Assembly: GCA_028287785.1 (NCBI GenBank)
Contig: JAQBOZ010000017.1
Span: forward strand, 72,225-136,224
DNA length: 64,000 nt
Direction: 5' to 3'
Origin: Chlorobiota bacterium
GTDB taxonomy: Bacteria; Bacteroidota; Ignavibacteria; OLB7
Positions 3,206-37,274 of the stretch are shown here, piece after piece; the first letter of the stretch is position 1, and each line of letters begins with the position of its first letter. The notes beneath the pieces are model-generated. The model made no database searches and had not been told where the DNA came from. It saw only the letters and a list, made by a program, of their open reading frames with translations. The position numbers and the translations under genes are program-made.

Positions 3206-3322
3206 GGTTTCGGAACGTTATCGTACATCATTGCCCGGTACCGGATAAACACGGGGTTCGGTGGGACGTATTGTCCCGCGCGACGGCAATGTATCGAATA
3301 TGGGGGAGAGTGATTACAGGAG

Positions 3323-3350: not shown

Positions 3351-3388
3351 GCTCTGTACGTGTCGTGCATACCGGACGCGGGTCTGAG

Positions 3389-21768: not shown

Positions 21769-23583
21769 ATGAACCATATTAGAAATTTCTGCATCATTGC
21801 GCATATAGATCACGGCAAATCGACGCTGGCTGACCGTCTTCTGGAGACAACCGGACGGATCACGGCGCGCGAGATGACCACCAACCAGGTTCTTGACGAC
21901 AACCCCCTTGAACAGGAGAGGGGTATCACCATCAAGCTTCATGCAATCCAGATGGATTACAAGCGGAAGCCGGAGACTGGCGATACGGCGAACTACGTCC
22001 TGAACCTGATCGATACCCCCGGCCACGTCGACTTCAGCTATGAGGTCTCCCGCTCGCTTGCCGCGTGCGAGGGGGCGCTCCTGGTGGTGGACGCCACGCA
22101 GGGGGTGGAGGCGCAGACAATCGCGAACCTCTACCTGGCGATCGAAGCCGGGCTGGAGATCATCCCGGTCATCAACAAGATCGATCTTCCCTCCGCCGCA
22201 ACAACGCTTCCCGGTGTCAAGCAGCAGGTGCTGGATCTCCTCGGCTGCAAGGAGGAGGATATGATCCTTGCCTCGGCCAAGGCCGGTATCGGCATCGATG
22301 AGATTCTCGAGGCCATCGTCGCCAGGATTCCATCGCCGCGCGGCAACCCGGCCGCACAACTGCGGGCGCTGATCTTCGACTCCCTCTTCGACAGCTATCG
22401 TGGCGCCATCACCTACGTGCGCGTGGTGGATGGGGAGCTGCACGAGGGGCAGAAGATCAAGTTCATGCACAGCAAGCGGGAGTACATCGTGGAGGAGGCG
22501 GGCGTTCTCCACATGGACCGGATCAGGACCAAGGTGATCCCCTGCGGCTCCGTGGGATACTTTACCGCGGCCATCAAGGATGTGAAGGATACCAAGGTCG
22601 GCGATACCGTCACCACCGCCAAGGATGGCGCCGAGCTGCCGATTCCCGGATTCCGCGAGGTGAAGCCGATGGTCTTTGCCGGCCTCTATCCCGCCGATTC
22701 CGATGACTACGAGGCACTGCGGGATGCGCTTGGCAAGCTCTCGCTGAACGATTCCGCGATTCTCTACGAGCCTGAGACCTCCACGGCGCTCGGCTTCGGG
22801 TTCCGCTGCGGCTTCCTCGGCATGCTCCACATGGAGATCGTCCAGGAGCGGCTGGAGCGGGAGTTCGATCAGACGCTGGTGACCACGATCCCGAACGTCG
22901 AGTACATCGTCACCAAGACGAACGGCGAGCAGGTGACGATCGATAATCCGGCCGATCTGCCGCCGGTGGGACAGATTGAGACGATCGAGGAGCCATATAT
23001 CAAGGCGCAGATCATCTGCCCGGCCGAGTATATCGGCGTGGTGACGAAGCTCTGCATCGAGCGGCGCGGGATCTACAAGAACACCACCTACATCTCGCAG
23101 TCCCGCGTCGATCTGACGTTCGAGCTGCCGCTGGCGGAGGTGATCTTCGATTTCTACGACAAGCTGAAGTCCGGCTCGCGCGGGTACGCGTCGCTGGATT
23201 ACGAGGTGATCGGCATGCGGGAGGGGGATCTGGTGAAGATCGATATCCTTCTGAACAACGATCCGGTGGATGCGCTCTCGATGATCATCCATCGCTCGAA
23301 ATCCTACGGCTACGGACGGAAGCTCTGCGCGAAGCTCCGGGAGTTGATCCCGAGACAGATGTTCGAGATCGCGATTCAGGCCGCTATCGGCGCCAAGATC
23401 ATCGCCCGCGACACCATCAAGGCGATGCGGAAGGATGTGATCGCCAAGTGCTACGGCGGCGATATCTCCCGCAAGCGGAAGCTCCTCGAAAAGCAGAAGG
23501 AGGGGAAGAAGCGGATGAAGCAGGTCGGCGCGGTCGAAATCCCCCAGGAGGCATTTCTCGCCGTGCTTTCGATGGATGACTGA
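21769..23583 (+). CDS. lepA: Elongation factor 4
   Basis: GTPase motifs [14 protein letters not shown] and NKID, plus the LepA-specific C-terminal domain. Confidence 0.9.
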
Positions 23584-23763
23584 TGCGTTCGGGGGAACAT
23601 CGCAAACGGCGCGCGCGATCCACGGGCCGCGGGCCCGATGGAAGGGGATTGCAGGGTAACATTATCGCGCGAGCAGGCGTAGGGGGCAGATCGCCCACGG
23701 CTTTTTCCGCTCGGAGATATGCCGGGGCATCATCAAGTTCAGTTGAGTAGACACCAGACAGTT

Positions 23764-24726
23764 ATGAACGCAGAAGAACGGAAGCGTATACTCGCGGGAA
23801 GGAAGGGCTCCAACAAGCGCTCCACCAACGCCCGGAATCCCGGAGCCGGAACCACGCCGGGGGAGCCGCCGCGCACGTTCGGCGAGGAGCTTCTCTCATG
23901 GGTGAAGACCATCGTCAGCGCGTTGCTGATCGTGATGGTGGTCAACGGCCTGCTGATCGCCTCCTTCGTGGTCCCCACCGGATCGATGGAGAATGAGGTG
24001 ATGGCGGGGGATTTCCTCTTCGTCAACAAGTTCATCTACGGCGGCTCCACCCCACAGACCATTCCGTTCCTCGATACCCCTCTGCCATACTATCGATTCC
24101 CCGGCATCCGCGAGCCGAAGAAAGGGGACGTTATCGTCTTCATCTTCCCCGGCATGCGCGATCAGCGGAAGGCCGATGAGTTCCAGTACTATCTGAAGCG
24201 CTGCGTTGCCGTCGCCGGCGATACTCTCCAGGTGAAGAACAAGAAGGTCTTCATCAACGGCCAGGAGCAGCCCACGCCGACCAACGCGCGGTTCGAGCCG
24301 GGCCTGCCCCAGCCCGACGACACCCTCCGCACCTTTCCCGAATATGCCCACTATACCCGCGACAACTGGGGTCCGGTCCGCATTCCGAAAAAGGGGGATG
24401 TGATTCAGATGAACGATTCCACCTTCTATCGCTGGTACATTTTCATTCAGCGGGAAGGGCATGAGGTGGAGAAGGAAGGGCAGATTGTGACGGTCGATGG
24501 GAAGCCGGCCACATCCTACACGGTACAGCGCGACTACTGTTTCGGCATGGGAGACAATCGCGATAACTCGCTCGACAGCCGCTACTGGGGCTTTGTTCCC
24601 ATCGAAAATGTCGTGGGGACGCCCCTGTTTGTCTACTGGTCGTGGGACCCCAACCTCTCCCTTTCGCAGCTTGGCGACAAACTGAGCTCGATACGGTGGA
24701 GCAGAATATTCAAGGGGGTTCACTGA
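23764..24726 (+). CDS. lepB: Signal peptidase I
   Basis: Catalytic serine box PTGSMENE, lysine box KRCVAVAGDT and GDNRDNSLDSRYWG. Start at MNAEERK (23764). Confidence 0.8.
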   Translation: MNAEERKRILAGRKGSNKRSTNARNPGAGTTPGEPPRTFGEELLSWVKTIVSALLIVMVVNGLLIASFVVPTGSMENEVMAGDFLFVNKFIYGGSTPQTIPFLDTPLPYYRFPGIREPKKGDVIVFIFPGMRDQRKADEFQYYLKRCVAVAGDTLQVKNKKVFINGQEQPTPTNARFEPGLPQPDDTLRTFPEYAHYTRDNWGPVRIPKKGDVIQMNDSTFYRWYIFIQREGHEVEKEGQIVTVDGKPATSYTVQRDYCFGMGDNRDNSLDSRYWGFVPIENVVGTPLFVYWSWDPNLSLSQLGDKLSSIRWSRIFKGVH

Positions 24727-24825
24727 TCCGGTCAGGGCTGGAATCGGTGCCGTGGCCTGAGAGGCCCCTCCGGGGCTTATCGCTCCGATCTCTCATAGAT
24801 TCCGTGAAGCGGGGATGATCCATCG

Positions 24826-25701
24826 ATGGATGTTCCAGAACAAGTTTCCAGCGAGCCTTCGGCACCGGCCCGGCCCGATTCCGGACCACTTTCTGAGGAT
24901 CGGCGCCGGCTGCGAATCCTTGTACGGATACTGCTGATCACCGGCCTTGTCCTGGTTCTGGTCCGGGTATTTATCCTGGAACCGTATGCGATTCCCACCG
25001 GCTCCATGCGGCCGGTAATCCTCGAGGGGGATGTTATCCTGGTGAGCAAGCTCCCCTACAGGATTCGTTCGCTCAGATATCTTCCGTTCACCCAAACACC
25101 GCTCCCGTATCTGGAGCTTCCCGGCCTTGGTCATCTCGAACGGGGCGATGTCGTGGTGTTCGATTATCCGTTTCCGAGCGAGATCAACCCCGGCGAGGGG
25201 ACGCAGTATGTGAAGCGCGCCTTGGCGATTGCCGGCGATACGGTGCAGTTGGTTGAGGGGCGGATCAGGGTGAACGGCCGTGAGGTCCCCTCCCGCTGGG
25301 GTGTCGAGGAGGATGGCCGCAACCGGCGGGCCCCCGTGATCCCGGAACAGGCATCGCGCCTCTTTCGCGCCGGCGATCCGGTTGTTACCCCCTTCAAGGG
25401 CTACGAGATTCAGATCGATTCGGTCATCGCCGAACGGTGGCGGCTGGTGATGGAGGGGGAGGGCTACTCCGTCGGCTTCCGCAATCATATCGTCTTCATC
25501 GGCGGGCTTCCGGCAACGCGATACACGTTCAAGCGGGATTATTTCCTGGCGCTCGGGGATAACTCCCTGATCAGCAAGGACAGCCGGTACTTCGGGTTCG
25601 TTCCGTACGATAATCTAATCGGCCGGGCCTGGATGATCTACTGGTCCCGCGATCCCGACGATGGCGTTCGATGGGGCCGTATCTGCAATCTCATTCGTTG
25701 A
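24826..25701 (+). CDS. lepB: Signal peptidase I (second paralog)
   Basis: PTGSMRPV, KRALAIAGDTV and GDNSLISKDSRYFG boxes. Tandem with the first lepB, downstream of lepA. Confidence 0.75.
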   Translation: MDVPEQVSSEPSAPARPDSGPLSEDRRRLRILVRILLITGLVLVLVRVFILEPYAIPTGSMRPVILEGDVILVSKLPYRIRSLRYLPFTQTPLPYLELPGLGHLERGDVVVFDYPFPSEINPGEGTQYVKRALAIAGDTVQLVEGRIRVNGREVPSRWGVEEDGRNRRAPVIPEQASRLFRAGDPVVTPFKGYEIQIDSVIAERWRLVMEGEGYSVGFRNHIVFIGGLPATRYTFKRDYFLALGDNSLISKDSRYFGFVPYDNLIGRAWMIYWSRDPDDGVRWGRICNLIR

Positions 25702-25780
25702 TCGGTCACGGCAATGACGTGGACCCGGCGACGGTTCTCCAGGCCACGTGGAACGGTGGTTTCGTGGCGCAGGCATTTAC

Positions 25781-27007
25781 ATGGCGGGTCTCTACATCCA
25801 TATCCCCTTCTGCGAGAAGAAGTGCATCTACTGCAGCTTCTACTCGATCGAAACGATCGAGGGGAAGGGGCGATTTCTGAGCGCCGTGGTTCGAGAGATC
25901 GATATGCGGGCCGACGCGCTGGAGGCGGCCGGAGAGGCGCCCCGGCTCTACGATACGATCTTCTTCGGGGGAGGAACGCCATCGCTGCTGTCACCGGAGG
26001 AGATCGGCTCCATCATGGCGGCGCTGCGGCGACGTTTTACGATCGGCGACGATGCCGAGATCACCATGGAGTGCAACCCCGGCGCCCTTACCGCGGAGTG
26101 GCTGGAGGGATATCGCTCGCTTGGCGTGAACCGGCTCAGCTTCGGCGTGCAGTCATTCCACGACGACGAACTTCGCTTCCTGAGCCGCATTCATACGGCG
26201 GATGAAGCGCGACGAAGCATCGCTCTGGCACGGAGTGTCTTCGAGAATGTTTCGCTTGACCTTATATTCGCCCTTCCAAATCAGACACGGGAGCGTTGGC
26301 GGAGCAATCTGCTTGAGGGGATACGACTTGGAACCGGCCATATCAGCGCATATTCGTTGATTTTCGAGGAAGGAACCAGATTGAACGCGATGCGTCTGGC
26401 CGGTGAGGTAACTCCCGCGCCGGAGGATCTGGATGCCGATATGTACGAGGAGACGATGTCGACCCTCGCCGGGCACGGTTTCGAGCAGTACGAGGTAAGC
26501 AATTACGCTCGCCCCGGCCGGGAGTGCAGACATAACATCGGATACTGGGAGCGGAGAAGCTATATGGCGTTCGGCCCTTCGGCGCACGGCTTTCTTCGTG
26601 GTGCCGGAAGCCAGGTCCGATGGGGGAACATCTCCAACCTGAGCGCCTATCTGGGCGCGGTGGAGGAGGGGACGCTTCCGGTGGCATCGAGCGAAGTGCT
26701 CTCGCCGCAGCTTATGATCGAGGAGATCATCTTTCTCGGTCTCCGCAGCAGTGGGGTCATGCTCGACGAATTTCAGAAGATCGCCGGGATCGATCTCGCC
26801 GATATCGCGGCGAAGGAGATTGCGGCGTATGCCAATGATGGCTATGTGCTTCGGAACGGCGGGCGTCTGACGGTGACCCGGAAGGGATACGCATTCGCCG
26901 ATCGTATCGCTCTCGAGCTCATCAGCGCGGTGGAGCGGGGGCTTCCAACCCTAATGGAGCCCCGGCTGATACTGCCGAGCCTGACGGTCGTTGCTTCCGC
27001 AGCCTGA
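25781..27007 (+). CDS. hemW: Radical SAM family heme chaperone HemW (HemN-like)
   Basis: CEKKCIYCSF radical-SAM motif directly after the start MAGLYIHIPF, plus the HemN C-terminal domain. Confidence 0.8.
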   Translation: MAGLYIHIPFCEKKCIYCSFYSIETIEGKGRFLSAVVREIDMRADALEAAGEAPRLYDTIFFGGGTPSLLSPEEIGSIMAALRRRFTIGDDAEITMECNPGALTAEWLEGYRSLGVNRLSFGVQSFHDDELRFLSRIHTADEARRSIALARSVFENVSLDLIFALPNQTRERWRSNLLEGIRLGTGHISAYSLIFEEGTRLNAMRLAGEVTPAPEDLDADMYEETMSTLAGHGFEQYEVSNYARPGRECRHNIGYWERRSYMAFGPSAHGFLRGAGSQVRWGNISNLSAYLGAVEEGTLPVASSEVLSPQLMIEEIIFLGLRSSGVMLDEFQKIAGIDLADIAAKEIAAYANDGYVLRNGGRLTVTRKGYAFADRIALELISAVERGLPTLMEPRLILPSLTVVASAA

Positions 27008-27126
27008 CGGATAGATGCTGGCCCGGCACCCGATCAGGTGGTTTGAAGGTCGATGCCAAGCGCAGTCGGCCTTTGCATCATGTTCGATACCAGGATCTCT
27101 AATTAGTTATTAATCGAGGAGTTTCG

Positions 27127-30100
27127 ATGAAGCAATACACGCTGATCAATCGTGTTCTTGCAGGCGTGTCGTTTCTGGTCGCACTGATCACCTACACGCT
27201 GACGCTCCAGCCGTCGGTTCCGTTCTGGGATTGCGGTGAGTTCAGCGCGGCTACTGCCTGGCAGCAGGTTCCGCATCCCCCCGGAGCGCCGCTCTTCCTG
27301 ATCGTCGCCCGGTGGTTCCATATGATTCCCATCGGCGATCCTGGGTGGCGAATCAACATGGTTTCGGCGGTGAGTTCCGCCTTTACAGCCGCCGTCGTCT
27401 ATCTGATCGTCGTGAAGATGATCGAGCGGTGGCGTCCGTTCCGCGAGGGGCACTCCCCGATGAGCTACATCCCGACGTTTGGCGGGGCAATCATCGGCGC
27501 GCTTTCGTTCACCTGGTGCGATACGCAGTGGTTCAACTCCGTGGAGTCCGAGGTGTATGCCGCCGGAACGCTCCTTATCGCCATCCTGATCTGGCTGATG
27601 ATGCGCTGGAACGAGGTCGCGGAAAAGCGGGGACACGAGCGGTATCTGCTGCTGATGGCCTATGTGGTCGGCCTGGCGTTCGGCGTTCACCTGCTGGCGC
27701 TCCTTGTGGTGCCGGCCGTCGCCATGGTGATCTACTTCCGTCGCTACAAGTTCACCCCGTGGAGCTTCACCGTGATGCTCGGCATCACCGGCATCGTCTT
27801 CTTCTTCCTCGTCTACAAGGCTCCGCTTCAGTATATCCCGAAGCTCACCGCCATCAACCCGATTATCGGCTTCATGGTGGTGGTTGCGCTGCTTGGAGTT
27901 CTCTGGTGGTCCGTGCGCGAACGGAAGACGGTGGTCTATCTTTCAACCGCATCGTTCCTTCTGATCCTCCTCGGGTTTACCACCTACGCCCACATCCTCA
28001 TGCGCGCAAACGCTCATCCGGTGATGAACGAGAACGAGCCGGATACCGTGAGCGAGCTGGTGGGCTATCTGGGCCGCGAACAGTACGGCAACCGCGGATC
28101 GTGGCCGCGCCGGCAGGAGACCGAATCGTACTACCGGCAGTATCAGGACAAGTACGGCGAGTGGTTTGAGCCGGTGGGCCGCAACGATGACGGCACCTAT
28201 CAGTACGATCAGGTCAACGTTGCCGGTGAGGTGAACTTCCTGCTGAAGTACCAGTGCTATCACATGTATTTCCGCTATCTCCTCTGGAATTTCTACGGTC
28301 GGGTCAGCGATGTTCAGGATGCGGAGGCCGCCGGGTTCAGTGTGAACCCGCAGGAAAAGGCGCAGTTTATCACGCCGACCGGCTACCCCGATGTGTTCCC
28401 GATCCGCTTCTTCGCGCTGCCGTTTCTCCTTGGGCTGATCGGCATGTTCTACCATTTCAAGCGCGACTGGAAGATGGCGCTGGCGTTTATGACGCTCTTT
28501 CTGCTGCTGGGCATCGTCGCCACATTGCAACAGAACCAGCAGCAGCCGCAGCCGCGCGAGCGTGATTACTTCTACGTGGGCTCCTTCATGGTCTTCGCGA
28601 TGTGGATCGGTATCGGCGTCACCGGTATCGCCGAACAGCTCGGAAAGCCGAAGCTGGTGGAGTCGGATGAGGAGGATGGCGAACTGCACGAGCAGGGCGT
28701 GGGCCGCGTGGGCCTGATGACGGCGATCGTGGCGGTCGGCTTCGTCATGGCGCCGCTCAACATGGCGGTCGGTGGCTGGAAGGCGCACGATCGATCCAAG
28801 AACTGGGTGCCGTGGGATTATGCCTACAACATCCTCCAGAGTTGCGAGAAGGATGCGATCCTCTTCTGCAACGGTGATAACGACACCTTCCCTCTCTGGT
28901 ACATGCAGGATGTCGCCGGCGTGCGGCAGGATATCCGTGTGGTCAATCTCTCGCTGGGACAGACCCCGTGGTATATCTGGCAGTTGAAGAACGAGCGGCC
29001 CTGGAACGCCAAGCAGGTCCCCATCAGCTTCTCCAACGAGATGCTGAAGAAGGGAGAGGATGAGGAGGGAGGGCTCCGTCCGGAGATCGCCCGCGAGGCG
29101 CAGACCGTTGTTATCGATGTTCCCGCCGACGTTATGTCCTGGGCCACCAACGGCAAGAACGCGCAGGCCGGAAAGATGGAATGGAAGATGCGCGGTGGCG
29201 ATTATCCGGGACAGGCACAGGGGACCTTCATGGGCGTCCAGCACAAGCTGGTTCGCGATATCATGGAGACCAACCACTGGAAGCGCCCGATCTACTTCTC
29301 CTCCTCCACCCAGAGCGATGTCTGGTCGGGCCTGGAGAACTATTTCAGGACCGAGGGAATGGCCTACCGGATCATGCCGGTGCCGCAGCCGCAGAACTCC
29401 ATCAACCTGGATGTGATGCGGAAATGCCTCCTGGGCGTCCTTCCCGGCAACGACTTCAAGACCGATCCGTCCTACGGCTTCAAGTTCCGCTATCTGAACG
29501 ACAAGAGCGCCTTCTTCATGGATGATCACCGTCGTCTGGTGGTCACCTACCGTCTGCTGTACGACCGTCTGGCGCAGTACGAGCTGACCGAGGGGAAGAA
29601 CCCGAAGGGGGCAATCGCGGCGCTCGACAAGCTGGAGCAGGAGATCGACCCGGATATGTTCAACATGCCGTATCAGATCTCCCAGGAGATCGCCCGGATC
29701 TACAAGGAGGCCGGCGCTCCGGAGAAGGCGGCGAAGTACGCAAAGCTGACCCTCAAGGCGCTGGATGAGCAGAAGGATATCGATGACAACGGCGGAACAT
29801 CCCGCTACAGCGGCAGCCCGGCGGAGGTGCTTGCGGCGCGTGCGGCGATGTACGAGCTGATGGGTGATTATGATCGCGCGAAGAAGGAGTACCAGACGCA
29901 GGATCAGAACAACCCGAACGTCCGCGGGCAGATCGAGCTGATCGACCTCCAGCAGTTCCTCGACAAGAAGGATACGGCCGGCGCCATCAACCAGCTCAAG
30001 AAGATCATTGCCGGCTACGGCAAGGATTCCAGCAATACGGCGATGCAGCGGAACGCCGAGGTCTTCAAGCAGCGGCTCTCCGAGCTGATGAAGACGCCGA

Positions 30101-30156
30101 TCGACAATACCTCGGTAAGCGACTCCACGGCCGGCTCATCGGCGCGCGGCAACTGA
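27127..30156 (+). CDS. DUF2723 domain-containing membrane protein (TMEM260-like, GT-C fold glycosyltransferase-like) with C-terminal TPR-like region
   Basis: The N-terminus carries the family hallmark SVPFWDCGEF...HPPGAPLF, with many TM helices over ~500 aa. The ~450-aa soluble C-terminal part has TPR-like helices. Confidence 0.75.
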   Translation: MKQYTLINRVLAGVSFLVALITYTLTLQPSVPFWDCGEFSAATAWQQVPHPPGAPLFLIVARWFHMIPIGDPGWRINMVSAVSSAFTAAVVYLIVVKMIERWRPFREGHSPMSYIPTFGGAIIGALSFTWCDTQWFNSVESEVYAAGTLLIAILIWLMMRWNEVAEKRGHERYLLLMAYVVGLAFGVHLLALLVVPAVAMVIYFRRYKFTPWSFTVMLGITGIVFFFLVYKAPLQYIPKLTAINPIIGFMVVVALLGVLWWSVRERKTVVYLSTASFLLILLGFTTYAHILMRANAHPVMNENEPDTVSELVGYLGREQYGNRGSWPRRQETESYYRQYQDKYGEWFEPVGRNDDGTYQYDQVNVAGEVNFLLKYQCYHMYFRYLLWNFYGRVSDVQDAEAAGFSVNPQEKAQFITPTGYPDVFPIRFFALPFLLGLIGMFYHFKRDWKMALAFMTLFLLLGIVATLQQNQQQPQPRERDYFYVGSFMVFAMWIGIGVTGIAEQLGKPKLVESDEEDGELHEQGVGRVGLMTAIVAVGFVMAPLNMAVGGWKAHDRSKNWVPWDYAYNILQSCEKDAILFCNGDNDTFPLWYMQDVAGVRQDIRVVNLSLGQTPWYIWQLKNERPWNAKQVPISFSNEMLKKGEDEEGGLRPEIAREAQTVVIDVPADVMSWATNGKNAQAGKMEWKMRGGDYPGQAQGTFMGVQHKLVRDIMETNHWKRPIYFSSSTQSDVWSGLENYFRTEGMAYRIMPVPQPQNSINLDVMRKCLLGVLPGNDFKTDPSYGFKFRYLNDKSAFFMDDHRRLVVTYRLLYDRLAQYELTEGKNPKGAIAALDKLEQEIDPDMFNMPYQISQEIARIYKEAGAPEKAAKYAKLTLKALDEQKDIDDNGGTSRYSGSPAEVLAARAAMYELMGDYDRAKKEYQTQDQNNPNVRGQIELIDLQQFLDKKDTAGAINQLKKIIAGYGKDSSNTAMQRNAEVFKQRLSELMKTPIDNTSVSDSTAGSSARGN

Positions 30157-30203
30157 CGCCGATATGAGGCGGTTTTCCGGCTCATTACCTGATTAACGCG
30201 GAT

Positions 30204-30250
30204 ACGTGCCGGTGGTGGCACATGCCTTCGGGCAGCTTCCACCGGCACGT
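30204..30250. other. 12-bp perfect inverted repeat (acgtgccggtgg ... ccaccggcacgt) between the DUF2723 and GT2 genes
   Basis: Seen directly. It sits 48 nt after the DUF2723 stop and 18 nt before the GT2 start. It could be a terminator, attenuator or protein-binding site. Confidence 0.35.
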
Positions 30251-30267
30251 TCTGTATATTTACCCGT

Positions 30268-31008
30268 ATGAACCTCTCCTTCATCGTTCCGGCCTATAAC
30301 GAATCCGAGCGTATCGAGGCTTCGATCATCAAGATGATCGATTATTTCTCGCGGCAGCCCTACGCCTACGAGGTGATCGTGGTGGATGATGGATCGCGCG
30401 ATAATACGCCGGATATTGTTCGGCGCTATGCGGGCGAACGGATTCGCCTGCTCCAGCAGCCACGCAACATGGGGAAGGGGGCAGCGGTCCGGCGCGGGAT
30501 GCTGGAGGGAAAAGGGGACTATCGAATCTTCTCCGATGCCGATTTCTCCACCCCGATCACCGAGACCGGACGGATGCTCGAGTTCCTGACATCGTATGAT
30601 GTGGTGATAGGGAGCCGGGCAATCGATGAGAGCTTTATCAGGGAACATCAGCCGTGGTATCGGGAGACGATGGGGAAGATCTTCAACAAGATGGTCCAGC
30701 TTGTGGCCGTGTCCGGGATCAAGGATACGCAATGCGGCTTCAAGGGCTTCCGTGGCGAGGCCGCGACGCAGATTTTCAGTCGCACATTGATCGATGGCTT
30801 CAGTTTCGACGTGGAAGCGCTCTTTCTGGCACGAAGTCTGGGGTACTCCATCAGGGAGATACCTGTTGAATGGTACAATGACGCGCGCTCCACGCTTAAC
30901 CCGATATCGGACTCGCTGAAGATGTTTCGCGAGTTGCTGAAGATCCGTTCGCTTCACCGCGACCGGCCGGTTTCCAGCTCGGTGCGGAAGGAGATCGGAT
31001 CGCACTGA
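30268..31008 (+). CDS. GT2 family polyprenyl-phosphate sugar synthase (Dpm1/Ppm1/GtrB-like)
   Basis: N-terminal GT-A motifs (IVPAYNESERI, VVDDGSRDNT, DAD) resemble dolichyl/polyprenyl-phosphate mannose or glucose synthases. Confidence 0.8.
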   Translation: MNLSFIVPAYNESERIEASIIKMIDYFSRQPYAYEVIVVDDGSRDNTPDIVRRYAGERIRLLQQPRNMGKGAAVRRGMLEGKGDYRIFSDADFSTPITETGRMLEFLTSYDVVIGSRAIDESFIREHQPWYRETMGKIFNKMVQLVAVSGIKDTQCGFKGFRGEAATQIFSRTLIDGFSFDVEALFLARSLGYSIREIPVEWYNDARSTLNPISDSLKMFRELLKIRSLHRDRPVSSSVRKEIGSH

Positions 31009-31084
31009 AGGGTGATAAACCGCGCGTTATATGCCTTCGCCGGGATCTCATGATGATGTGAGAACCTGATCAGACGGAGGAGCG

Positions 31085-31735
31085 ATGAACGACCAGCAGA
31101 ATGACCTTGAGGCGATTCACCAGAGTATCCGCGAGCGCTATCCGATGTATATCGTGAACCAGGGGTTCGAGCATTGGCTTCTCGATCGCACCGGTGCCGA
31201 TCTCACGGCGCTCGACCGGTATTTCCGCCTTCTGGATGACTACGGCTATCTCAGCGGCGACGGAACGCTCGCGGCGGATTATGCGGACATGCCCGGCCCA
31301 TCGGAGGTAACTGGCGATATCGAACGCCGTCTGGCCGGGCTGCCGCCGACGACCCTTGAAATGCTCGGTCGGGCAAGCGTGGAGGGGGAGCGGTTCAGAG
31401 TGGAGCCGCTGGCGATGCCGGGGGGAGGCCTCCATCAGGCGGAAGCGCTTCTTCAACCGGCGGTAACGGCCGGGGTGATTGCCTGCGACCGTGGAAGCTC
31501 CGACCTCTCTCCCCTGAAACATCGCTATCGATTCCTTCCGATGCGGACGCGGAAGATGGTCTACGACAGGCTTTCCGAGGCCCAGCGTGCGGACTATCAT
31601 GCGTCGCTGGTGGATTCGCTCAGCATGGAACTGGAACGGGCCGATGATCCCGGCGCTCGCGACATGATCAGCGGGATGATCAGCGAGCATAATAAAAGCG
31701 TTACCCGTCCCGACCCTCCGCCGGAAAAGGAGTAA
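31085..31735 (+). CDS. Hypothetical protein
   Basis: 216-aa ORF preceded by SD-like ggagga. No recognisable domain. Confidence 0.4.
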   Translation: MNDQQNDLEAIHQSIRERYPMYIVNQGFEHWLLDRTGADLTALDRYFRLLDDYGYLSGDGTLAADYADMPGPSEVTGDIERRLAGLPPTTLEMLGRASVEGERFRVEPLAMPGGGLHQAEALLQPAVTAGVIACDRGSSDLSPLKHRYRFLPMRTRKMVYDRLSEAQRADYHASLVDSLSMELERADDPGARDMISGMISEHNKSVTRPDPPPEKE

Positions 31736-31867
31736 TCGCGCATGGCGCCATATCTCCCCCACGGATCGCGCCGGACGGGCCTGGAACCTCTACCCGATAT
31801 GAGCATCGCGGCTCCCGCCGAATCGCTGGCTCGCTCGTTGCAGTGAAATAACGGCGATGGCCGGTTG

Positions 31868-33086: not shown

Positions 33087-33120
33087 CGGCCCGGATAGTC
33101 TCTATCCGGGCCGCTTTCGC
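33087..33120 (+). terminator. Terminator hairpin after the OMP gene
   Basis: cggcccggata (loop gtctc) tatccgggccg followed by ctttcgc. Confidence 0.5.
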
Positions 33121-33677: not shown

Positions 33678-35012
33678 TTGCAATTATCCAAACACATAGG
33701 GAAGGCCGCCTGGTCAACAGCCGATAGAATGCTGTCGGTCCTGATCGGCTTCGCGTTCTTCATACCGCAGAAGGTGATCGGCCCGTCGCACTGGGGAATC
33801 TATAGTACGGCGCAGGCGCTCCTTACCTCGGTCTATATGCTTTCCGATAGCCTCGCGCTTCAGGCCATGGTCAACTTCGGCATGGAGGAATTGCGACGCA
33901 GGCAGGCTCTTACCCTCTCCGCGCTTATCCACTGCACCTTTATCACGGTCATCACCCTCTCCGTCTATTTCAGTCGCGGGATGATTGCATCGTTTTTCAA
34001 CGAGCCGGAGCTGGTGACGACGCTGGGATATTTCCCCATCGTCTCGCTTGGCTTTCTCCTGCGGAACTACTTTCTCAAGGTCTCCCAGTTGTTTATCGAT
34101 ACGCGCGCCACATTCTTTATCGACCTGGCGTGGATCGGCAGCACGGTGATCCTGATCGTGTACGGATGGCGGCGCGGGACGCTGGTGAATGCCAATGACA
34201 TGATGGTGATCAGTGGGATATCGAGCGGCATCTCCTCGCTGATGGGCCTCTGGCTCTATCGTCGCAAGGTGCGTTTTACCACCAGCTTCGACCGGGCGTA
34301 CACCATCAGGATGATCCGTTTCGGCATCGCCCAGTTCGGCTCCGCCATCACCATGGTGTTGCAGACGCAGGGCGATACGCTGATCCTCAAGAAATTCGTC
34401 ACCTCCGATGTCATCGGCAATTACGACGCGGCCAAGAAGTTCTTCCGCGGCTTCGAGGCGCTTCGCGATGCCGGCGCTCTCTTCGTCTATCCGGCGGTGA
34501 CAAAGCTGGCGGCCGAACGGCGGCATGGCGAGCTGGTGCTGCTGCTGGAGAAGATGATAGGCTTTATGGTGATCGTGATCACGCCGATTGTGGTGTTCGT
34601 CTGGCTTGGGCCGACCGATTACCTCTTCAACCTGATCTACAAGGGGCAGTACCAGCAGGCCGCGACCATCTTCAAGTTTCTCTCGCTCGCTGCCCTTGCA
34701 ATCCCGTTCAGCATGAACACCTATGTGCTGGGGGGGCTTGGCGAGGCGCGCCGCTATTTCCGCGTGACGCTGACATCGGCCCTCTTCTCGGTGGTGGCGG
34801 CGCTTGTGCTGGTGCCGATGATCCACGCAAACGGTGCCGCGCTCGCCGTCGTGGTCAGCTTTGCCACCCTCGGCGTGCTGGCGACGCGCGCGGTCAAGAA
34901 GATCATTCCATTTTCCCTCCCCAACGCGTTCGGCCGCTGGCGCGATGCGCTCAATTTCGTGATCAGGCTATGGCGCCGCGCCATGAGAAAGGGGGACAGG
35001 CCCTCCCAATGA
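33678..35012 (+). CDS. Polysaccharide biosynthesis protein / oligosaccharide flippase (Wzx-like, MOP superfamily)
   Basis: About 12 predicted TM segments and the characteristic length. The N-terminus may start slightly upstream with a non-ATG codon. Confidence 0.55.
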   Translation: MQLSKHIGKAAWSTADRMLSVLIGFAFFIPQKVIGPSHWGIYSTAQALLTSVYMLSDSLALQAMVNFGMEELRRRQALTLSALIHCTFITVITLSVYFSRGMIASFFNEPELVTTLGYFPIVSLGFLLRNYFLKVSQLFIDTRATFFIDLAWIGSTVILIVYGWRRGTLVNANDMMVISGISSGISSLMGLWLYRRKVRFTTSFDRAYTIRMIRFGIAQFGSAITMVLQTQGDTLILKKFVTSDVIGNYDAAKKFFRGFEALRDAGALFVYPAVTKLAAERRHGELVLLLEKMIGFMVIVITPIVVFVWLGPTDYLFNLIYKGQYQQAATIFKFLSLAALAIPFSMNTYVLGGLGEARRYFRVTLTSALFSVVAALVLVPMIHANGAALAVVVSFATLGVLATRAVKKIIPFSLPNAFGRWRDALNFVIRLWRRAMRKGDRPSQ

Positions 35013-35032: not shown

Positions 35033-37168
35033 ATGCTGCAAGCCATTCAATACCAGAAAACAGGAGAGCTTCACGTAAAGGAGCTGCCGGCTCCGGAACT
35101 GAAGCCGAAGATGATCGTGGTCCGTACCTACGCCTCGCTGATCTCCGCCGGAACCGAGCGGACATCCGTGGCAACGGCCAAGGCGTCGATGTTCGAAAAG
35201 GCCCGCACCCGTCCCGATCTGGTCAAGCAGGTGCTGGACATGGCGAAGAAGGAGGGATGGCGGAACACCATCGACAAGGTCAGGACGAAGCTGGACAGCT
35301 ACAAGGCGCTCGGCTACTCCGCGGCCGGCGTGGTGATCGAATCGGCGTGCGACGAGTTCGCGCCGGGCGATCACGTTGCCTGCGCGGGGGGGGGCTTTGC
35401 CTCGCACGCGGAGATCATCGCCGTGCCCCGCAATCTCGCCGTGAAGATCCCGGAAGGGGTCACACACGATGAGGCGGCGTTTACCACGCTCGGCGCCATC
35501 GCCATGCAGGGGGTGCGCCAGGCCAGGGTCGGCCTCGGGGAATCGGTCGCGGTGGTGGGGCTTGGGCTTCTGGGGCAGCTTACCGTGCAGTTGCTGAAGG
35601 CCGCCGGGTGCCGGGTGATCGGCCTCGACATCAACGAGCGACAGTTTGCGCTGGCCCGCGAGTTCGGGGCGGATGAACTGGTGGTGACCGGCTCGTCGGC
35701 GCTTGGGAGCATCGAGAGCTTTACGCGCGGCATCGGCTGCGACGCGGTGATCCTTACCGCCGGCACCAGCTCCAACGATCCGATGATCCTGGCGATCAAC
35801 GCGGCCCGGAAAAAAGGGAGGGTGGTGGTGGTCGGCGCGGTCGGCATGGATATCCCCCGCTCGCCGTTCTACGAGAAGGAGCTGGATATCACGATCTCCT
35901 GCAGTTACGGTCCCGGACGATACGATCCGACGTACGAGGAGGAAGGGCATGATTACCCGGTCGGCTATGTGCGCTGGACCGAGCGACGGAATATGGAATC
36001 GGTGCTGGATCTGATCGCGAGCGGGAAGCTGAATGTCGGGCGGATGATCACGCATCGCATTCCGATCACCGAGGCGGAGCGGGCGTACGATCTGATCACC
36101 GGGAAAATTCAGGAGCCGTACATCGGCATCGTCCTGAACTATCCCGATCGTGGGGCAAGGGCGCTGACGCGCGTTGTTCAGGTAAACCAGCCGGTGGGGG
36201 GAAGCGGGCTGGGCATAGGCTTTATCGGCGCCGGGAGCTTCGCGCAGAGCTATCTGCTGCCGCCGCTCAAGACGCTCGGCGTCAACCTGGTGGCGGTATC
36301 CACATCGACATCGGTCAACGCCCGCTCGGTGGCCGAGAAATTCGGGTTCGGCGATGCCTCCACCGACTCCGCCGGCCTGCTCGCCAGAAAGGAGATCGGC
36401 GCGGTCTTTATCGCCACCCGCCACGACACGCACGGCTCATACGTTGCCGATGCGCTGGAGGCGGGGAAGCAGGTGTTCGTGGAGAAGCCGCTGGCGATCA
36501 CGCAGGAGGAGCTTGAGCGCATCCGCGATCTGGCCGCCACGAAGAACGATCGCGTGATGGTGGGTTTCAACCGCAGGTTTTCCGCTCCGCTTGTCGCGAT
36601 GAAGCGCCATTTCGCCGGAAACACGGAGCCGCTGGTGATGCTCTATCGCGTCAATGCCGGCGCCATCAAGCTGGATAGCTGGGTGCAGGCTGAAGCGCAG
36701 GGGGGGAGGATCATCGGCGAGGGATGCCACTTCATCGACTGCATGCAGTTCATGACCGGCGCCCGGCCGGTCAGCGTCTACGCCGCAGCGATCGGCTCGC
36801 GCAACCAGCAGGTCCGCAACGCCGATTCCGTCTCCATCACCATCCGTTTCTCCGACGGCTCGGTGGGGACGGTTCATTATCTCGCCAACGGCGATCCATC
36901 GGTCCCGAAGGAATATTTCGAGGTCTTCGGCGGCGGCGGAACCGCCATCATGAACAACTTCCGCGAGCTGGTGCTCTCCTCCGGCCGGAAGACCAGGGTC
37001 GAGAAGTTCAACGGCGACAAGGGACACTCCGAGGAGGTGAAGCAGACGATCGAGGCGATGAAGAGCGGCGCTCCTATGCCGATCAGTTTCGAGAGTCTGC
37101 ACGATACCACCGCCGCGACATTTGCGGCGCTGACATCGCTGGGATCGGGAAATGCTGTAGCGTTATGA
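35033..37168 (+). CDS. Bi-domain oxidoreductase (N-terminal zinc-type alcohol dehydrogenase/MDR domain fused to C-terminal Gfo/Idh/MocA oxidoreductase domain)
   Basis: MDR Rossmann motif VAVVGLGLLG in the first half and Gfo/Idh/MocA N-terminal NAD-binding motif GIGFIGAGSFAQ in the second half. Confidence 0.75.
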   Translation: MLQAIQYQKTGELHVKELPAPELKPKMIVVRTYASLISAGTERTSVATAKASMFEKARTRPDLVKQVLDMAKKEGWRNTIDKVRTKLDSYKALGYSAAGVVIESACDEFAPGDHVACAGGGFASHAEIIAVPRNLAVKIPEGVTHDEAAFTTLGAIAMQGVRQARVGLGESVAVVGLGLLGQLTVQLLKAAGCRVIGLDINERQFALAREFGADELVVTGSSALGSIESFTRGIGCDAVILTAGTSSNDPMILAINAARKKGRVVVVGAVGMDIPRSPFYEKELDITISCSYGPGRYDPTYEEEGHDYPVGYVRWTERRNMESVLDLIASGKLNVGRMITHRIPITEAERAYDLITGKIQEPYIGIVLNYPDRGARALTRVVQVNQPVGGSGLGIGFIGAGSFAQSYLLPPLKTLGVNLVAVSTSTSVNARSVAEKFGFGDASTDSAGLLARKEIGAVFIATRHDTHGSYVADALEAGKQVFVEKPLAITQEELERIRDLAATKNDRVMVGFNRRFSAPLVAMKRHFAGNTEPLVMLYRVNAGAIKLDSWVQAEAQGGRIIGEGCHFIDCMQFMTGARPVSVYAAAIGSRNQQVRNADSVSITIRFSDGSVGTVHYLANGDPSVPKEYFEVFGGGGTAIMNNFRELVLSSGRKTRVEKFNGDKGHSEEVKQTIEAMKSGAPMPISFESLHDTTAATFAALTSLGSGNAVAL

Positions 37169-37242: not shown

Positions 37243-37274
37243 AAGGCCATCTCCCGATTCCGGGAGATGGCCTT
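37243..37274. terminator. Bidirectional terminator hairpin between convergent genes (oxidoreductase and rplS)
   Basis: Perfect 14-bp stem aaggccatctcccg / cgggagatggcctt with loop attc. Confidence 0.7.

What the first reader, a model, noticed from the sequence alone, without database searches (positions are those of the whole stretch)
27127..31008. DUF2723 (TMEM260-like GT-C) membrane protein with TPR tail next to a Dpm1-like polyprenyl-phosphate sugar synthase: putative protein O-glycosylation module
DUF2723 proteins share the GT-C fold of protein O-mannosyltransferases, and their human homolog TMEM260 O-mannosylates IPT/Ig-like domains. The adjacent GT2 has the Dpm1/Ppm1 signature of enzymes that make polyprenyl-phosphate-mannose or -glucose, exactly the lipid-linked donor a GT-C enzyme would use. 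The TPR tail could recognise protein substrates. The same genome encodes many Ig-like repeat proteins exported by T9SS (e.g. 59561-63415) that would be natural substrates. A 12-bp perfect inverted repeat (30204-30250) sits between the two genes.
Basis: partly seen in the sequence, partly recalled or inferred. Interest (0 to 1): 0.6.

Follow-up and report, generated by a model that had tools for sequence, protein, structure and literature searches.

The report
Bacterial TMEM260-like glycosyltransferase with lipid-sugar synthase
Two neighbouring genes in a Kapabacteria (Bacteroidota) genome encode a membrane enzyme related to the human protein O-mannosyltransferase TMEM260 and the enzyme that most likely makes its lipid-linked sugar donor, which makes the pair a concrete candidate for the still-unidentified enzyme that puts the first sugar on exported proteins in Bacteroidota.

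Summary
ORF 27127-30156 (1009 aa) is a TMEM260-like (DUF2723, CAZy GT117) GT-C enzyme. ORF 30268-31008 (246 aa) is a soluble GT2 whose closest solved relatives all make polyprenyl-phosphate sugars. The 12-bp perfect inverted repeat lies between them.

Five of the six TMEM260 residues shown by mutagenesis to be essential have invariant counterparts: D35, H50, R317, Y320 and D584. The sixth, R355, could not be aligned. An AlphaFold model (pLDDT 91) shows a GT-C core, a mixed alpha/beta periplasmic domain and a TPR-like tail.

The gene pair recurs in Kapabacteria relatives and in several other subclades and genomic contexts. It is absent from an Ignavibacteria clade and from Bacteroidales. The inverted repeat is a conserved, terminator-like RNA hairpin.

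The most likely mechanism is that the GT2 loads a hexose onto undecaprenyl phosphate and the GT117 transfers it in the periplasm to Ser/Thr of exported proteins. The protein acceptor is inferred, not shown, and the sugar is undetermined (glucose or mannose).

The Bacteroidota O-glycosylation sequon D(S/T)(A/I/L/V/M/T) is 3-fold enriched in this window's exported proteins. The enzyme that starts that pathway is still undiscovered according to a 2025 review. GT117 is a plausible but unproven candidate.

The parts
27127..30156 (+). GT117 / TMEM260-like (DUF2723) GT-C glycosyltransferase, 1009 aa
   Evidence: PF11028 E 8e-58. Human TMEM260 (9rql) matches at E 2e-17 with the single sequence and 2.8e-26 with the family profile. 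AlphaFold model: pLDDT 91.4, pTM 0.91. Foldseek top hits are the GT-C enzymes STT3, AglB, Pmt4, ArnT, ALG9/12 and DPY19.
27127..28755 (+). Membrane GT-C core (aa 1-543) with 11 hydrophobic segments. The first periplasmic loop carries D35 and H50. The REQYG loop (R317, Y320) lies in a roughly 130-aa periplasmic insertion. An invariant PQPRERDY motif sits at the periplasmic start of TM10.
   Evidence: Hydropathy analysis. Alignment to TMEM260: D52->D35, H67->H50. REEYG (R264/Y267) corresponds to REQYG by motif and topology. These residues are invariant.
28789..29496 (+). Periplasmic mixed alpha/beta (Rossmann-like) domain (aa 555-790) containing the NGDNDTFP motif. D584 is the counterpart of the TMEM260 catalytic base D441.
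   Evidence: Second HMMER stretch aligns query 550-623 with TMEM260 407-480; R439-G440-D441 corresponds to N582-G583-D584. Secondary structure of the model. D584 is present in 97 of 97 ORFs.
29521..30093 (+). C-terminal helical-repeat (TPR-like) domain (aa 799-989)
   Evidence: Nine helices in the model. Foldseek matches to TPR proteins MamA, PilF and LGN at probability 1.0. Pfam TPR_14 is below its cut-off (18 vs 23.5 bits). Sequence conservation is low and no invariant Asn is present.
30198..30255 (+). Intergenic RNA hairpin whose core is the 12-bp perfect inverted repeat (30204-30215 / 30239-30250). It is terminator-like and ends 12 nt before the GT2 start codon.
   Evidence: pair I15. The hairpin is conserved at the same position in L169, L170, L085 and L006, with compensatory inner-stem changes and G-U wobbles that pair only on the + strand.
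30268..31008 (+). Soluble GT2 polyprenyl-phosphate hexose synthase candidate (Dpm1/Alg5/GtrB/ArnC clade), 246 aa, with no TM helix
   Evidence: PF00535 E 3e-28. Best PDB relatives are DPMS 5mlz, ArnC and GtrB, with D90-A-D92 aligned to the DPMS DAD motif. Homologues are named dolichyl-phosphate beta-glucosyltransferase. No hydrophobic segment was found.
31085..31735 (+). Hypothetical 216-aa soluble protein. It is a variable companion of the pair, and its role and even its coding status are uncertain.
   Evidence: No Pfam or NCBIfam match and no TM segment. Homologues of 39-40% identity sit at the same position in L007 and L089, with genes called there in L171 and L172. It is absent from the nearest relative L169. 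A longer ORF overlaps it on the opposite strand.
23719..27007 (+). Upstream block conserved with GT117: two signal peptidase I genes (23719-24726, 24826-25701) and hemW (25748-27007), preceded by lepA (21769-23583)
   Evidence: Pfam. hemW matches TIGR00539 above its cut-off. The lepA-lepB-lepB-hemW-GT117 order is present in 25 of 80 GTDB loci.
33678..35012 (+). MOP/Wzx-type flippase gene 2.7 kb downstream, a weak candidate for the missing flippase
   Evidence: PF01943/PF13440 and a weak match to the MOP flippase family. Its position is kept only in the closest relatives L006 and L085. A MOP flippase directly precedes the GT2 homologue in a Deinococcus record.

Best explanation
The two genes form a lipid-phosphate-sugar glycosylation pair that acts across the inner membrane.

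Proposed steps:
1. The cytoplasmic, peripherally membrane-bound GT2 transfers a hexose from a nucleotide sugar (UDP-Glc or GDP-Man; undetermined) to undecaprenyl phosphate. This is inferred from homology.
2. The lipid-linked sugar is flipped by an unidentified flippase. This step is inferred.
3. The 11-TM GT117 enzyme binds the donor at the periplasmic face through D35, H50, R317 and Y320. It uses D584 in its periplasmic alpha/beta domain as the general base. It transfers the single hexose, with inversion, to a Ser/Thr hydroxyl of an extended, Sec-exported polypeptide held by the alpha/beta and TPR-like domains.

Status of each claim:
- Residue conservation and fold are shown here.
- The protein acceptor is inferred from homology to human TMEM260.
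- The hairpin between the genes is most likely an intrinsic terminator or RNA-stabilising element after the GT117 gene. Expression of the two genes may therefore be only partly coupled.
For: GT117 family membership:
- Pfam PF11028 is far above its cut-off.
- The family profile hits human TMEM260 at E 2.8e-26 in two stretches, covering both the donor-binding loop and the acceptor-side domain.

Catalytic residues:
- The residues shown essential in TMEM260 are D52, H67, R264, Y267 and D441.
- They correspond to D35, H50, R317, Y320 and D584.
- These are invariant in 115 homologues and in 97 ORFs at 34-64% identity.
- They are also kept in Parabacteroides, Prevotella and Hymenobacter homologues.

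Fold:
- There are 11 hydrophobic segments, and the topology places all these residues on the periplasmic side.
- The model is confident and matches GT-C enzymes and TPR proteins.

GT2:
- Its three closest solved families are all polyprenyl-phosphate sugar synthases, and the DXD motif aligns.

Gene linkage:
- The GT2 lies directly downstream of a GT117 in 12 GTDB loci.
- Starting from the GT2, a GT117 is adjacent in 5 of 8 informative metagenome loci at >=55% identity and in 8 of 22 at 50-55%.
- The pair is also present in four further close relatives.
- It occurs in different contexts, for example with ATP synthase upstream in L005.
- The GT2 is sandwiched between two GT117 paralogues in L007 and L087.
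- Adjacency is scattered over several subclades of the tree.

Link to secretion:
- GT117 sits directly downstream of two signal peptidase I genes in 25 of 80 loci.

Sequon:
- D[ST][AILVMT] occurs 52 times against 17.3 expected in exported or periplasmic sequences of the window (0 of 3000 shuffles reach this).
- In cytoplasmic proteins the ratio is 1.5x, and eight control motifs are not enriched.
Against: - No experiment exists on any bacterial GT117, so the acceptor class is inferred from a single characterised eukaryotic member.
- The TPR Asn ladder of TMEM260 is not conserved. No TMEM260-type IPT sequon is present in the window's exported proteins.
- Adjacency is partial. 53 informative GTDB loci have a GT117 without a GT2 nearby. 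An Ignavibacteria clade and Bacteroidales lack it. GT2 orthologues at about 60% identity can sit next to an MFS transporter instead.
- A strong hairpin separates the genes.
- No GtrA-type flippase is nearby.
- The known bacterial GT2 + GT-C pairs cited (GtrB/Gtr*) modify glycans, not proteins.
Confidence: 0.58

Rival explanations
1. The pair is a GtrB/GtrC- or ArnC/ArnT-like glycan or lipid modification system. The GT117 adds a side-chain hexose in the periplasm to a non-protein acceptor such as LPS, lipid A core, peptidoglycan or an exopolysaccharide.
For: The classical bacterial systems that combine a polyprenyl-phosphate sugar synthase with a GT-C enzyme modify glycans. In three Bacteroidales the DUF2723 gene is followed by a CE4 polysaccharide deacetylase. 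ArnT is among the fold matches. The TPR Asn ladder that grips the peptide in TMEM260 is not conserved.
Against: Sequence homology to TMEM260 extends beyond the generic GT-C core into the acceptor-side domain, including the catalytic base motif (GD, D584), which is invariant. The window holds no O-antigen or EPS cluster. The CE4 neighbour has no signal peptide, so it would not act in the periplasm.
Confidence: 0.2
2. The adjacency has no functional meaning. The GT2 supplies a lipid-linked sugar to another pathway, and the GT117 takes its donor from an enzyme encoded elsewhere.
For: Most GT117 loci lack the GT2 (53 of 65 informative). The GT2 occurs without GT117 in L086, L088 and in all 16 informative loci below 50% identity. 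A terminator-like hairpin lies between the genes. Genomes carry several GT117 paralogues, so a single GT2 cannot sit next to all of them.
Against: The pair recurs in unrelated contexts and in several GT117 subclades at 34-64% identity. It always has the same orientation, with gaps of 25-440 bp. The GT2 lies between two GT117 paralogues in L007 and L087.
Confidence: 0.14
3. The GT117 is an oligosaccharyltransferase. It moves a preassembled core glycan en bloc from undecaprenyl pyrophosphate to proteins, and the GT2 has a different role.
For: The top Foldseek matches are the OST catalytic subunits STT3 and AglB. [quoted passage not shown]
Against: The TM-scores are low (0.28-0.45) and generic for GT-C enzymes. 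The donor-contact residues match those that bind Dol-P-Man, a monophosphate monosaccharide, in TMEM260. The neighbouring GT2 belongs to the clade that makes monophosphate-linked single sugars.
Confidence: 0.08

Closest known systems
Human TMEM260 (CAZy GT117), an ER protein O-mannosyltransferase for IPT domains of plexins, cMET and RON (PMC10214176; bioRxiv 10.64898/2026.03.17.711096; PDB 9RQL/9RQM/9RQN)
   Same: Same Pfam family. Both have 11 TM helices, then an alpha/beta domain, then a TPR-like tail on the non-cytoplasmic side. D52, H67, R264, Y267 and D441 are all matched, by D35, H50, R317, Y320 and D584.
   Different: The window protein is 1009 aa against 707 aa. It has a roughly 130-aa periplasmic insertion after the REQYG loop, a larger beta-rich alpha/beta domain and a longer TPR-like tail. 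The Asn ladder is not conserved and no IPT sequon was found among local exported proteins. The lipid carrier would be undecaprenyl rather than dolichyl phosphate, and the sugar is unknown. Bacterial genomes carry several paralogues.
Actinobacterial Pmt (GT39) with polyprenyl-phosphate-mannose synthase Ppm1
   Same: The logic is the same. A GT2 makes polyprenyl-phosphate-hexose in the cytoplasm, and a GT-C enzyme O-glycosylates Sec-exported proteins on the outer face. This comparison rests on established knowledge, for example PMC8698208 for Streptomyces Pmt.
   Different: The GT-C family differs (GT39, PMT/MIR domains, no TPR). The two genes are generally not adjacent. The Ppm1-type motif is DADLxH, whereas this GT2 has DADFSTP.
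TMTC1-4 (GT105), cadherin O-mannosyltransferases
   Same: A GT-C membrane core followed by a lumenal TPR array thought to recruit protein substrates (PMC10214176).
   Different: There is no detectable sequence relationship. TMTCs lack the Rossmann-like domain that carries the catalytic base.
Three-component periplasmic glycosylation systems (GtrA/GtrB/Gtr*, ArnC/ArnT; PMC11127046)
   Same: A polyprenyl-phosphate sugar synthase of the GtrB/ArnC clade is encoded beside a GT-C transferase.
   Different: The acceptor in those systems is a glycan or lipid A. They encode a dedicated small flippase, and none is found here. Their GT-C enzymes have no TPR or Rossmann-like acceptor domain.
Bacteroidota general protein O-glycosylation (sequon D-S/T-A/I/L/V/M/T; LFG locus; review PMC12871550)
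   Same: Same phylum. The sequon is enriched 3-fold in this window's exported proteins. The protein-linked sugar in that system is a hexose (mannose). The enzyme that attaches the core is undiscovered.
   Different: The published model assumes en bloc transfer of a core glycan by an OTase. No LFG-type locus (metG-wzx-GTs) lies in this window. No experiment links DUF2723 to that system.

Membership tests
GT117 / TMEM260-like (PF11028) | Significant match to the family model above the curated threshold | tested here: met
   195.6 bits against a cut-off of 24.2, E 8e-58. Homologues also carry the newer PF28495 TMEM260_2 domain.
GT117 / TMEM260-like (PF11028) | GT-C fold with 11 TM helices and a non-cytoplasmic C-terminal lobe | tested here: met
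   11 hydrophobic segments. AlphaFold pLDDT 91.4. Foldseek hits to STT3, AglB, Pmt4, ArnT, ALG9/12 and DPY19 at probability 1.0. 9RQL itself was not in the fold library.
GT117 / TMEM260-like (PF11028) | Sugar-recognition motif residues D52 and H67 in the first external loop | tested here: met
   D35 and H50 align. They are invariant in 115 and in 97 sequences.
GT117 / TMEM260-like (PF11028) | Donor-loading loop R264 and Y267 (REEYG) | tested here: met
   REQYG (R317, Y320) sits at the topologically equivalent position after TM7. It was matched by motif and position, not by an HMM alignment. R is present in 96 of 97 and Y in 97 of 97 ORFs.
GT117 / TMEM260-like (PF11028) | R355 at the lumenal end of TMH10 | tested here: inconclusive
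   No TMEM260 sequence for this region could be retrieved (one search returned only fragments). An invariant PQPRERDY motif (R477, R479) lies at the periplasmic start of TM10. The equivalence is inferred from position only.
GT117 / TMEM260-like (PF11028) | Catalytic base D441 in the Rossmann-like domain (R-G-D) | tested here: met
   N582-G583-D584 aligns. G583, D584 and D586 are each present in 97 of 97 ORFs.
GT117 / TMEM260-like (PF11028) | TPR fingers with an Asn ladder that grips the acceptor peptide | tested here: inconclusive
   A helical-repeat tail is present with structural TPR matches. Pfam TPR is below its cut-off. No invariant Asn lies in residues 799-989.
GT117 / TMEM260-like (PF11028) | O-mannosylation of the IPT-domain sequon P-x5-P-x3-G-P-x2-G/A-G-G-x2-T/S | tested here: not met
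   No such motif occurs in 29 proteins of the window. The local Ig-like protein is of the HYDIN/ASH type, not IPT. The activity itself cannot be tested here.
Polyprenyl-phosphate monosaccharide synthase (GT2; Dpm1/Alg5/GtrB/ArnC clade) | GT-A GT2 domain with a DXD motif aligned to DPMS D89-A-D91 | tested here: met
   PF00535 E 3e-28. D90-A-D92 aligns with the MDADLQHP motif of 5mlz and is invariant.
Polyprenyl-phosphate monosaccharide synthase (GT2; Dpm1/Alg5/GtrB/ArnC clade) | Closest characterised relatives are lipid-phosphate sugar synthases | tested here: met
   PDB profile hits: DPMS 4e-24, ArnC 8e-19, GtrB 1e-17. The best NCBIfam models are AglJ, PgfS, ArnC, DolP-hexose transferase and PpgS, all below their equivalog cut-offs.
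Polyprenyl-phosphate monosaccharide synthase (GT2; Dpm1/Alg5/GtrB/ArnC clade) | Membrane anchoring by TM helices (as in PfDPMS, GtrB, ArnC) | tested here: not met
   No hydrophobic segment was found. By established knowledge it resembles the TM-less human-type DPM1 and the mycobacterial Ppm1 catalytic domain. Membrane association would have to be peripheral.
Polyprenyl-phosphate monosaccharide synthase (GT2; Dpm1/Alg5/GtrB/ArnC clade) | Sugar specificity (mannose vs glucose) | not testable with these tools
   NCBI and JGI name homologues dolichyl-phosphate beta-glucosyltransferase, while the best solved relative is a mannose synthase.
Three-component periplasmic glycosylation system | Dedicated flippase (GtrA, ArnE/F or MATE type) encoded with the pair | tested here: not met
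   No such gene lies within about 10 kb. Only a MOP/Wzx-type flippase is found 2.7 kb downstream, and it is conserved only in the closest relatives.
Bacteroidota general O-glycosylation system | Enrichment of the D(S/T)(A/I/L/V/M/T) sequon in non-cytoplasmic proteins | tested here: met
   52 observed against 17.3 expected (3.0x) in exported sequences, compared with 1.5x in cytoplasmic ones, and controls are flat. In signal-peptide-like ORFs of 99 related loci the ratio is 1.75x (z 11.9), compared with 1.16x in other ORFs.
Bacteroidota general O-glycosylation system | LFG-type locus (metG-wzx-glycosyltransferases) and the actual glycan | not tested
   No such locus is in the 64-kb window. The rest of the genome is not available.

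The most novel reading that the evidence does not exclude
This Bacteroidota-wide DUF2723/GT117 subfamily is the long-sought enzyme that starts the phylum's general protein O-glycosylation. It would put the first hexose (reported as mannose) from undecaprenyl-phosphate-hexose onto the Ser/Thr of D-(S/T)-(A/I/L/V/M/T) sequons in the periplasm. This would replace the postulated but never found core 'O-OTase'.

Paralogue redundancy would explain why genetics has missed it.

Supporting observations:
- The enzyme class is right: it is a homologue of a protein O-mannosyltransferase.
- All catalytic residues are kept from Kapabacteria to Parabacteroides, Prevotella and Hymenobacter.
- All five PLSDB records that match at E <= 1e-8 are Bacteroidota.
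- The sequon is enriched in this organism and its relatives.
- A 2025 review states that the core OTase, its flippase and the ligase 'remain undiscovered'.

Points against:
- TMEM260-like proteins also occur in many phyla without this sequon.
- No direct data exist.
Probability: 0.3. Interest if true: 0.85.

Novelty: new variant of a known kind. Interest (0 to 1): 0.65.

Why it matters
Only one GT117 enzyme, human TMEM260, has been characterised, and its structure dates from 2026. The profile search found 2,170 homologous 50%-identity clusters at E <= 1e-30. The close full-length homologues come from bacterial MAGs, and no study of a bacterial member was found in the searched library.

This work shows that the residues the human enzyme needs for donor binding and catalysis (five of the six tested; R355 unmapped) are kept in a bacterial lineage. 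In some genomes the enzyme is also encoded beside a lipid-phosphate-sugar synthase. Together these give the family a testable biochemical assignment.

The assignment touches an open question dating from 2009 (my recollection of when the system was first described): which enzyme attaches the core sugar in the general O-glycosylation system of Bacteroidota, a dominant gut phylum. If GT117 is that enzyme, the current en bloc OTase model would need revising. A single conserved target for manipulating Bacteroidota surface glycoproteins would also become available.

Tried and rejected
- The third protein-database search used a 189-aa TMEM260 fragment rebuilt from the HMMER alignment. It returned only short fragments of 330 aa or less. 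R264 and Y267 could be mapped from these, but R355 and the Asn ladder could not.
- The profile-profile comparison with those fragments stops at residue 213.
- The listing of cluster members on ten distant representatives gave almost no organism names.
- A PLSDB search with the GT2 found only Deinococcus, actinobacterial and haloarchaeal homologues. It says nothing about Bacteroidales.
- A search for a TMEM260-type IPT sequon in the window's proteins was negative.
- hyp216 was considered as the missing flippase and rejected, because it has no TM segment.
- The inverted repeat was considered as a protein-binding DNA palindrome. G-U wobble pairs that work only on the + strand, together with compensatory stem changes, favour an RNA hairpin.
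- Literature searches found no paper in the held library that links DUF2723, TMEM260 or GT117 to Bacteroidota.

Full report
**Observation**

The window has about 60% G+C. Around the finding it carries a run of + strand genes:
- lepA (21769-23583)
- two signal peptidase I genes (23719-24726 and 24826-25701)
- hemW (25748-27007; TIGR00539 above its cut-off)
- the 1009-aa ORF at 27127-30156
- the 246-aa ORF at 30268-31008
- a 216-aa ORF with no family match
- NUDIX, an OMP beta-barrel, RuvX, a MOP-type flippase and a fused oxidoreductase

The large ORF matches Pfam PF11028 'TMEM260-like' (formerly DUF2723) at E 8e-58. The small ORF matches PF00535 GT2 at E 3e-28. The 12-bp perfect inverted repeat is at 30204-30215 / 30239-30250. 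The best database hits place the organism in the Kapabacteria, part of the Bacteroidota/Chlorobi group.

**The GT-C enzyme**

By sequence alone the protein hits the solved human TMEM260 (9RQL) at E 2e-17. A 30-sequence family profile hits it at 2.8e-26. Both give two stretches: residues 13-215 and 550-623.

The 2026 cryo-EM study of TMEM260 (bioRxiv 10.64898/2026.03.17.711096) showed the following:
- D52 and H67 in the first lumenal loop engage the mannose of Dol-P-Man.
- R264 and Y267 in the donor-loading loop bind the phosphate and the sugar. R355 also contacts the sugar.
- D441 in the lumenal Rossmann-like domain is the catalytic base.
- An Asn ladder in the TPR domain holds the extended acceptor peptide.

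I rebuilt the TMEM260 fragment 29-217 from the alignment and used it to retrieve longer vertebrate fragments. In these, R264 and Y267 lie in the motif 'REEYG'. The bacterial family has an invariant 'REQYG' (R317, Y320) in the equivalent loop after TM7.

All five residues are invariant in 115 homologues of 41-69% identity. They are also invariant in 97 full-length ORFs taken from related loci at 34-64% identity, apart from R317 in 96 of 97. R355 could not be aligned. An invariant 'PQPRERDY' motif sits at the periplasmic start of TM10, which is the right place for it.

Hydropathy gives 11 membrane segments. The resulting topology puts all these residues and the C-terminal 465 residues in the periplasm.

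The AlphaFold model built on the 115-sequence alignment is confident (pLDDT 91.4, pTM 0.91). It shows the membrane core, a mixed alpha/beta domain (about 555-790) and nine C-terminal helices (799-989). Foldseek against the PDB returns the GT-C enzymes STT3, AglB, Pmt4, ArnT, ALG9/12 and DPY19, and TPR proteins for the tail. The library did not contain 9RQL.

Differences from TMEM260:
- about 300 extra residues
- a roughly 130-residue periplasmic insertion after the REQYG loop
- a larger alpha/beta domain
- a longer TPR-like tail without a conserved Asn ladder

**The GT2**

It has no hydrophobic segment, so it is cytoplasmic or peripheral. With a 34-sequence profile, the three best solved families are P. 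furiosus dolichol-phosphate-mannose synthase (4e-24), ArnC (8e-19) and GtrB (1e-17). All three make polyprenyl-phosphate monosaccharides. D90-A-D92 aligns with the DPMS DAD motif.

NCBIfam gives only sub-threshold hits to AglJ, PgfS, ArnC, a Dol-P-hexose transferase and PpgS. NCBI and JGI name its homologues 'dolichyl-phosphate beta-glucosyltransferase'. The sugar is therefore undetermined, either glucose or mannose.

**Is the pair conserved?**

Forward test. I scanned one genome per GTDB species with the GT117 profile. This gave 80 loci, all from Kapabacteria, Ignavibacteria, Kryptonia and similar lineages.
- The GT2 orthologue lies directly downstream of a GT117 in 12 loci.
- 53 loci are informative but lack it.
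- 15 loci are too short to tell.

Reverse test. I scanned 80 metagenome loci anchored on the GT2. A GT117 is adjacent, on the same strand with gaps of 25-440 bp, in:
- 5 of 8 informative loci at >=55% GT2 identity
- 8 of 22 at 50-55%
- 0 of 16 below 50%

Four further close relatives all show hemW-GT117-GT2. The pair also occurs in unrelated contexts, for example after the ATP synthase operon in L005.

Relatives often carry two GT117 paralogues around the GT2:
- hemW-GT117-GT2-hyp-GT117-NUDIX in L007
- hemW-GT117-GT2-GT117 in L087
- tandem GT117-GT117-GT2 in L024 and L063

A neighbour-joining tree of the 97 GT117 ORFs shows GT2 adjacency scattered over several subclades of the upper half of the tree. 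A large Ignavibacteria clade lacks it. In one Chlorobiota MAG the GT2 orthologue instead overlaps the start of an MFS transporter. The linkage is real but partial. This is expected if one synthase serves several paralogous transferases.

A second and more widespread linkage is lepA-lepB-lepB-hemW-GT117, found in 25 of 80 loci. It places the enzyme next to the signal peptidases. This fits, but does not prove, action on newly exported polypeptides.

**The inverted repeat**

It is the core of a strong hairpin at 30198-30255 (z -4.6). A hairpin occupies the same position, 17-30 nt upstream of the GT2 start, in L169, L170, L085 and L006.
- The stem base is conserved (ACGUGCYGR...YCRGCACGU).
- The inner stem differs but stays complementary.
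- Several G-U pairs can form only in + strand RNA.
- It is followed by a modestly U-rich stretch.

Similar perfect hairpins follow other genes in the window (pairs I2, I8, I9, I10 and I16). Strong hairpins also follow the GT117 gene in L005 and L087. It is best read as an intrinsic terminator or RNA-stabilising hairpin, not as something special to this module.

**Link to Bacteroidota O-glycosylation**

A 2025 review (PMC12871550) makes four relevant points:
- Bacteroidota glycosylate non-cytoplasmic proteins at D-(S/T)-(A/I/L/V/M/T).
- The reducing-end sugar is a hexose (mannose).
- Deleting the LFG locus leaves a hexose-deoxyhexose core whose machinery is encoded elsewhere.
[quoted passage not shown]'

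I counted the sequon in 12 exported or periplasmic sequences of the window.
- It occurs 52 times against 17.3 expected from composition-preserving shuffles, a 3.0-fold excess. None of 3000 shuffles reaches this value.
- In 17 cytoplasmic proteins it occurs 23 times against 15.1-15.3 expected.
- Eight control motifs (reversed, E/N/K/G at the first position, non-hydrophobic third position, and others) are not enriched.

In 99 related loci with crude signal-peptide calling, the ratio is 1.75 (z 11.9) for signal-peptide-like ORFs and 1.16 for the others. A small set of unrelated GT2-anchored loci gives 1.05. This organism therefore very probably uses the Bacteroidota sequon.

A tblastn search of PLSDB with the GT117 found only five records at E <= 1e-8. 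All are Bacteroidota: Parabacteroides, Phocaeicola, Prevotella, Bacteroides and Hymenobacter. Their DUF2723 proteins keep every catalytic residue. In the three Bacteroidales records the gene is followed by a CE4 deacetylase, and by queG in Parabacteroides and Prevotella, not by a GT2.

No paper in the searchable library links DUF2723, TMEM260 or GT117 with Bacteroidota.

**Interpretation**

The best-supported mechanism is a lipid-phosphate-sugar relay. The GT2 loads a hexose on undecaprenyl phosphate, an unidentified flippase moves it across the membrane, and the GT117 transfers it in the periplasm.

What is shown: family membership, fold, conservation of five of the six TMEM260 residues tested by mutagenesis (R355 unmapped), partial but recurrent gene linkage, and sequon enrichment.

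What is inferred: the protein acceptor, the sugar, the flippase, and any link to the D(S/T)X system.

The main rival is a Gtr/Arn-like modification of a glycan or lipid. It cannot be excluded, because only one GT117 enzyme has ever been characterised.

Its repeats are of the HYDIN/ASH type, and no TMEM260 sequon is present. It does carry 10 D(S/T)X sequons against 5.4 expected.

**Novelty and verdict**

This is a new variant of a known kind. It is a bacterial GT117 with the residues needed for donor binding and catalysis (five of six mapped), paired in some lineages with an Alg5/Dpm1-like synthase. It is analogous to actinobacterial Pmt/Ppm1 but belongs to a different GT-C family.

The profile search found 19,615 homologous 50%-identity clusters at E <= 0.001 and 2,170 at E <= 1e-30. 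No study of a bacterial member turned up in the searched library.

The most novel reading not excluded is that this subfamily is the missing initiating enzyme of Bacteroidota general O-glycosylation. I put that at about 0.3.

Noticed in passing
window 21769-30156; loci L031, L038, L040, L041, L046, L047, L049, L054-L057 and others: The gene order lepA, signal peptidase I x2, hemW, GT117 is conserved in 25 of 80 GTDB loci. These include an Ignavibacteria clade in which no GT2 follows. The GT117 is therefore linked to the signal peptidase genes more widely than to the GT2.
   Followed up: partly
L007 5295-13066; L087 3474-10721; L024 10001-17083; L063 10001-16798: Relatives carry two GT117 paralogues flanking or preceding the GT2. 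The window has a single copy. By identity it resembles the downstream 'b' copy of L007 (50% vs 39%), but it occupies the upstream 'a' position. This suggests loss or replacement of one paralogue.
   Followed up: partly
window 31085-31735 (+), overlapped by ORF 31070-31762 (-): A 216-aa soluble ORF with no family match lies between the GT2 and NUDIX. Homologues of 39-40% identity occur at the same place in L007 and L089, and genes are called there in L171 and L172. The nearest relative L169 lacks it (392 bp gap instead of 857 bp). Its function and coding strand are not settled.
   Followed up: partly
L086 7001-8943; L088 7001-8943: In a Chlorobiota MAG the GT2 orthologue (60% identity) overlaps by 4 nt the start of an MFS transporter and has no GT117 nearby. 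The transporter could be a flippase for the lipid-linked sugar. A 927-aa HYDIN-type Ig-repeat protein lies upstream.
   Followed up: no
L173 8001-12793; L174 8001-13017; L176 6001-10191: In Parabacteroides, Prevotella and Bacteroides the DUF2723 gene is followed by a CE4 polysaccharide deacetylase that has no signal peptide. In Parabacteroides and Prevotella queG comes next. The synteny is conserved within Bacteroidales and differs from Kapabacteria.
   Followed up: partly
window 7987-9648, 46356-48650, 59561-63415 and other exported proteins: The Bacteroidota O-glycosylation sequon D[ST][AILVMT] is strongly over-represented in exported proteins. The LptD/OstA-like protein has 11 against 1.8 expected, the 764-aa T9SS-tail protein 14 against 3.6, and the Ig-repeat peptidase 10 against 5.4.
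   Followed up: yes
window 3315-3358, 37243-37274, 56220-56248, 2022-2061, 33087-33113: Perfect or near-perfect G+C-rich hairpins lie just after several genes. Most lack a clear T-run. They probably represent this organism's usual terminator type, and the simple terminator scan misses them.
   Followed up: no
L177 4752-7919; L178 5965-8409: In a Deinococcus record the GT2 homologue (37% identity) lies between a MOP-family flippase and another glycosyltransferase. In a Streptomyces record it is the N-terminal part of an 814-aa fusion protein.
   Followed up: no
window 35033-37168: A 711-aa protein fuses a zinc-type alcohol dehydrogenase domain with a Gfo/Idh/MocA oxidoreductase domain. It lies directly after the MOP flippase gene and may act in sugar modification.
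   Followed up: no
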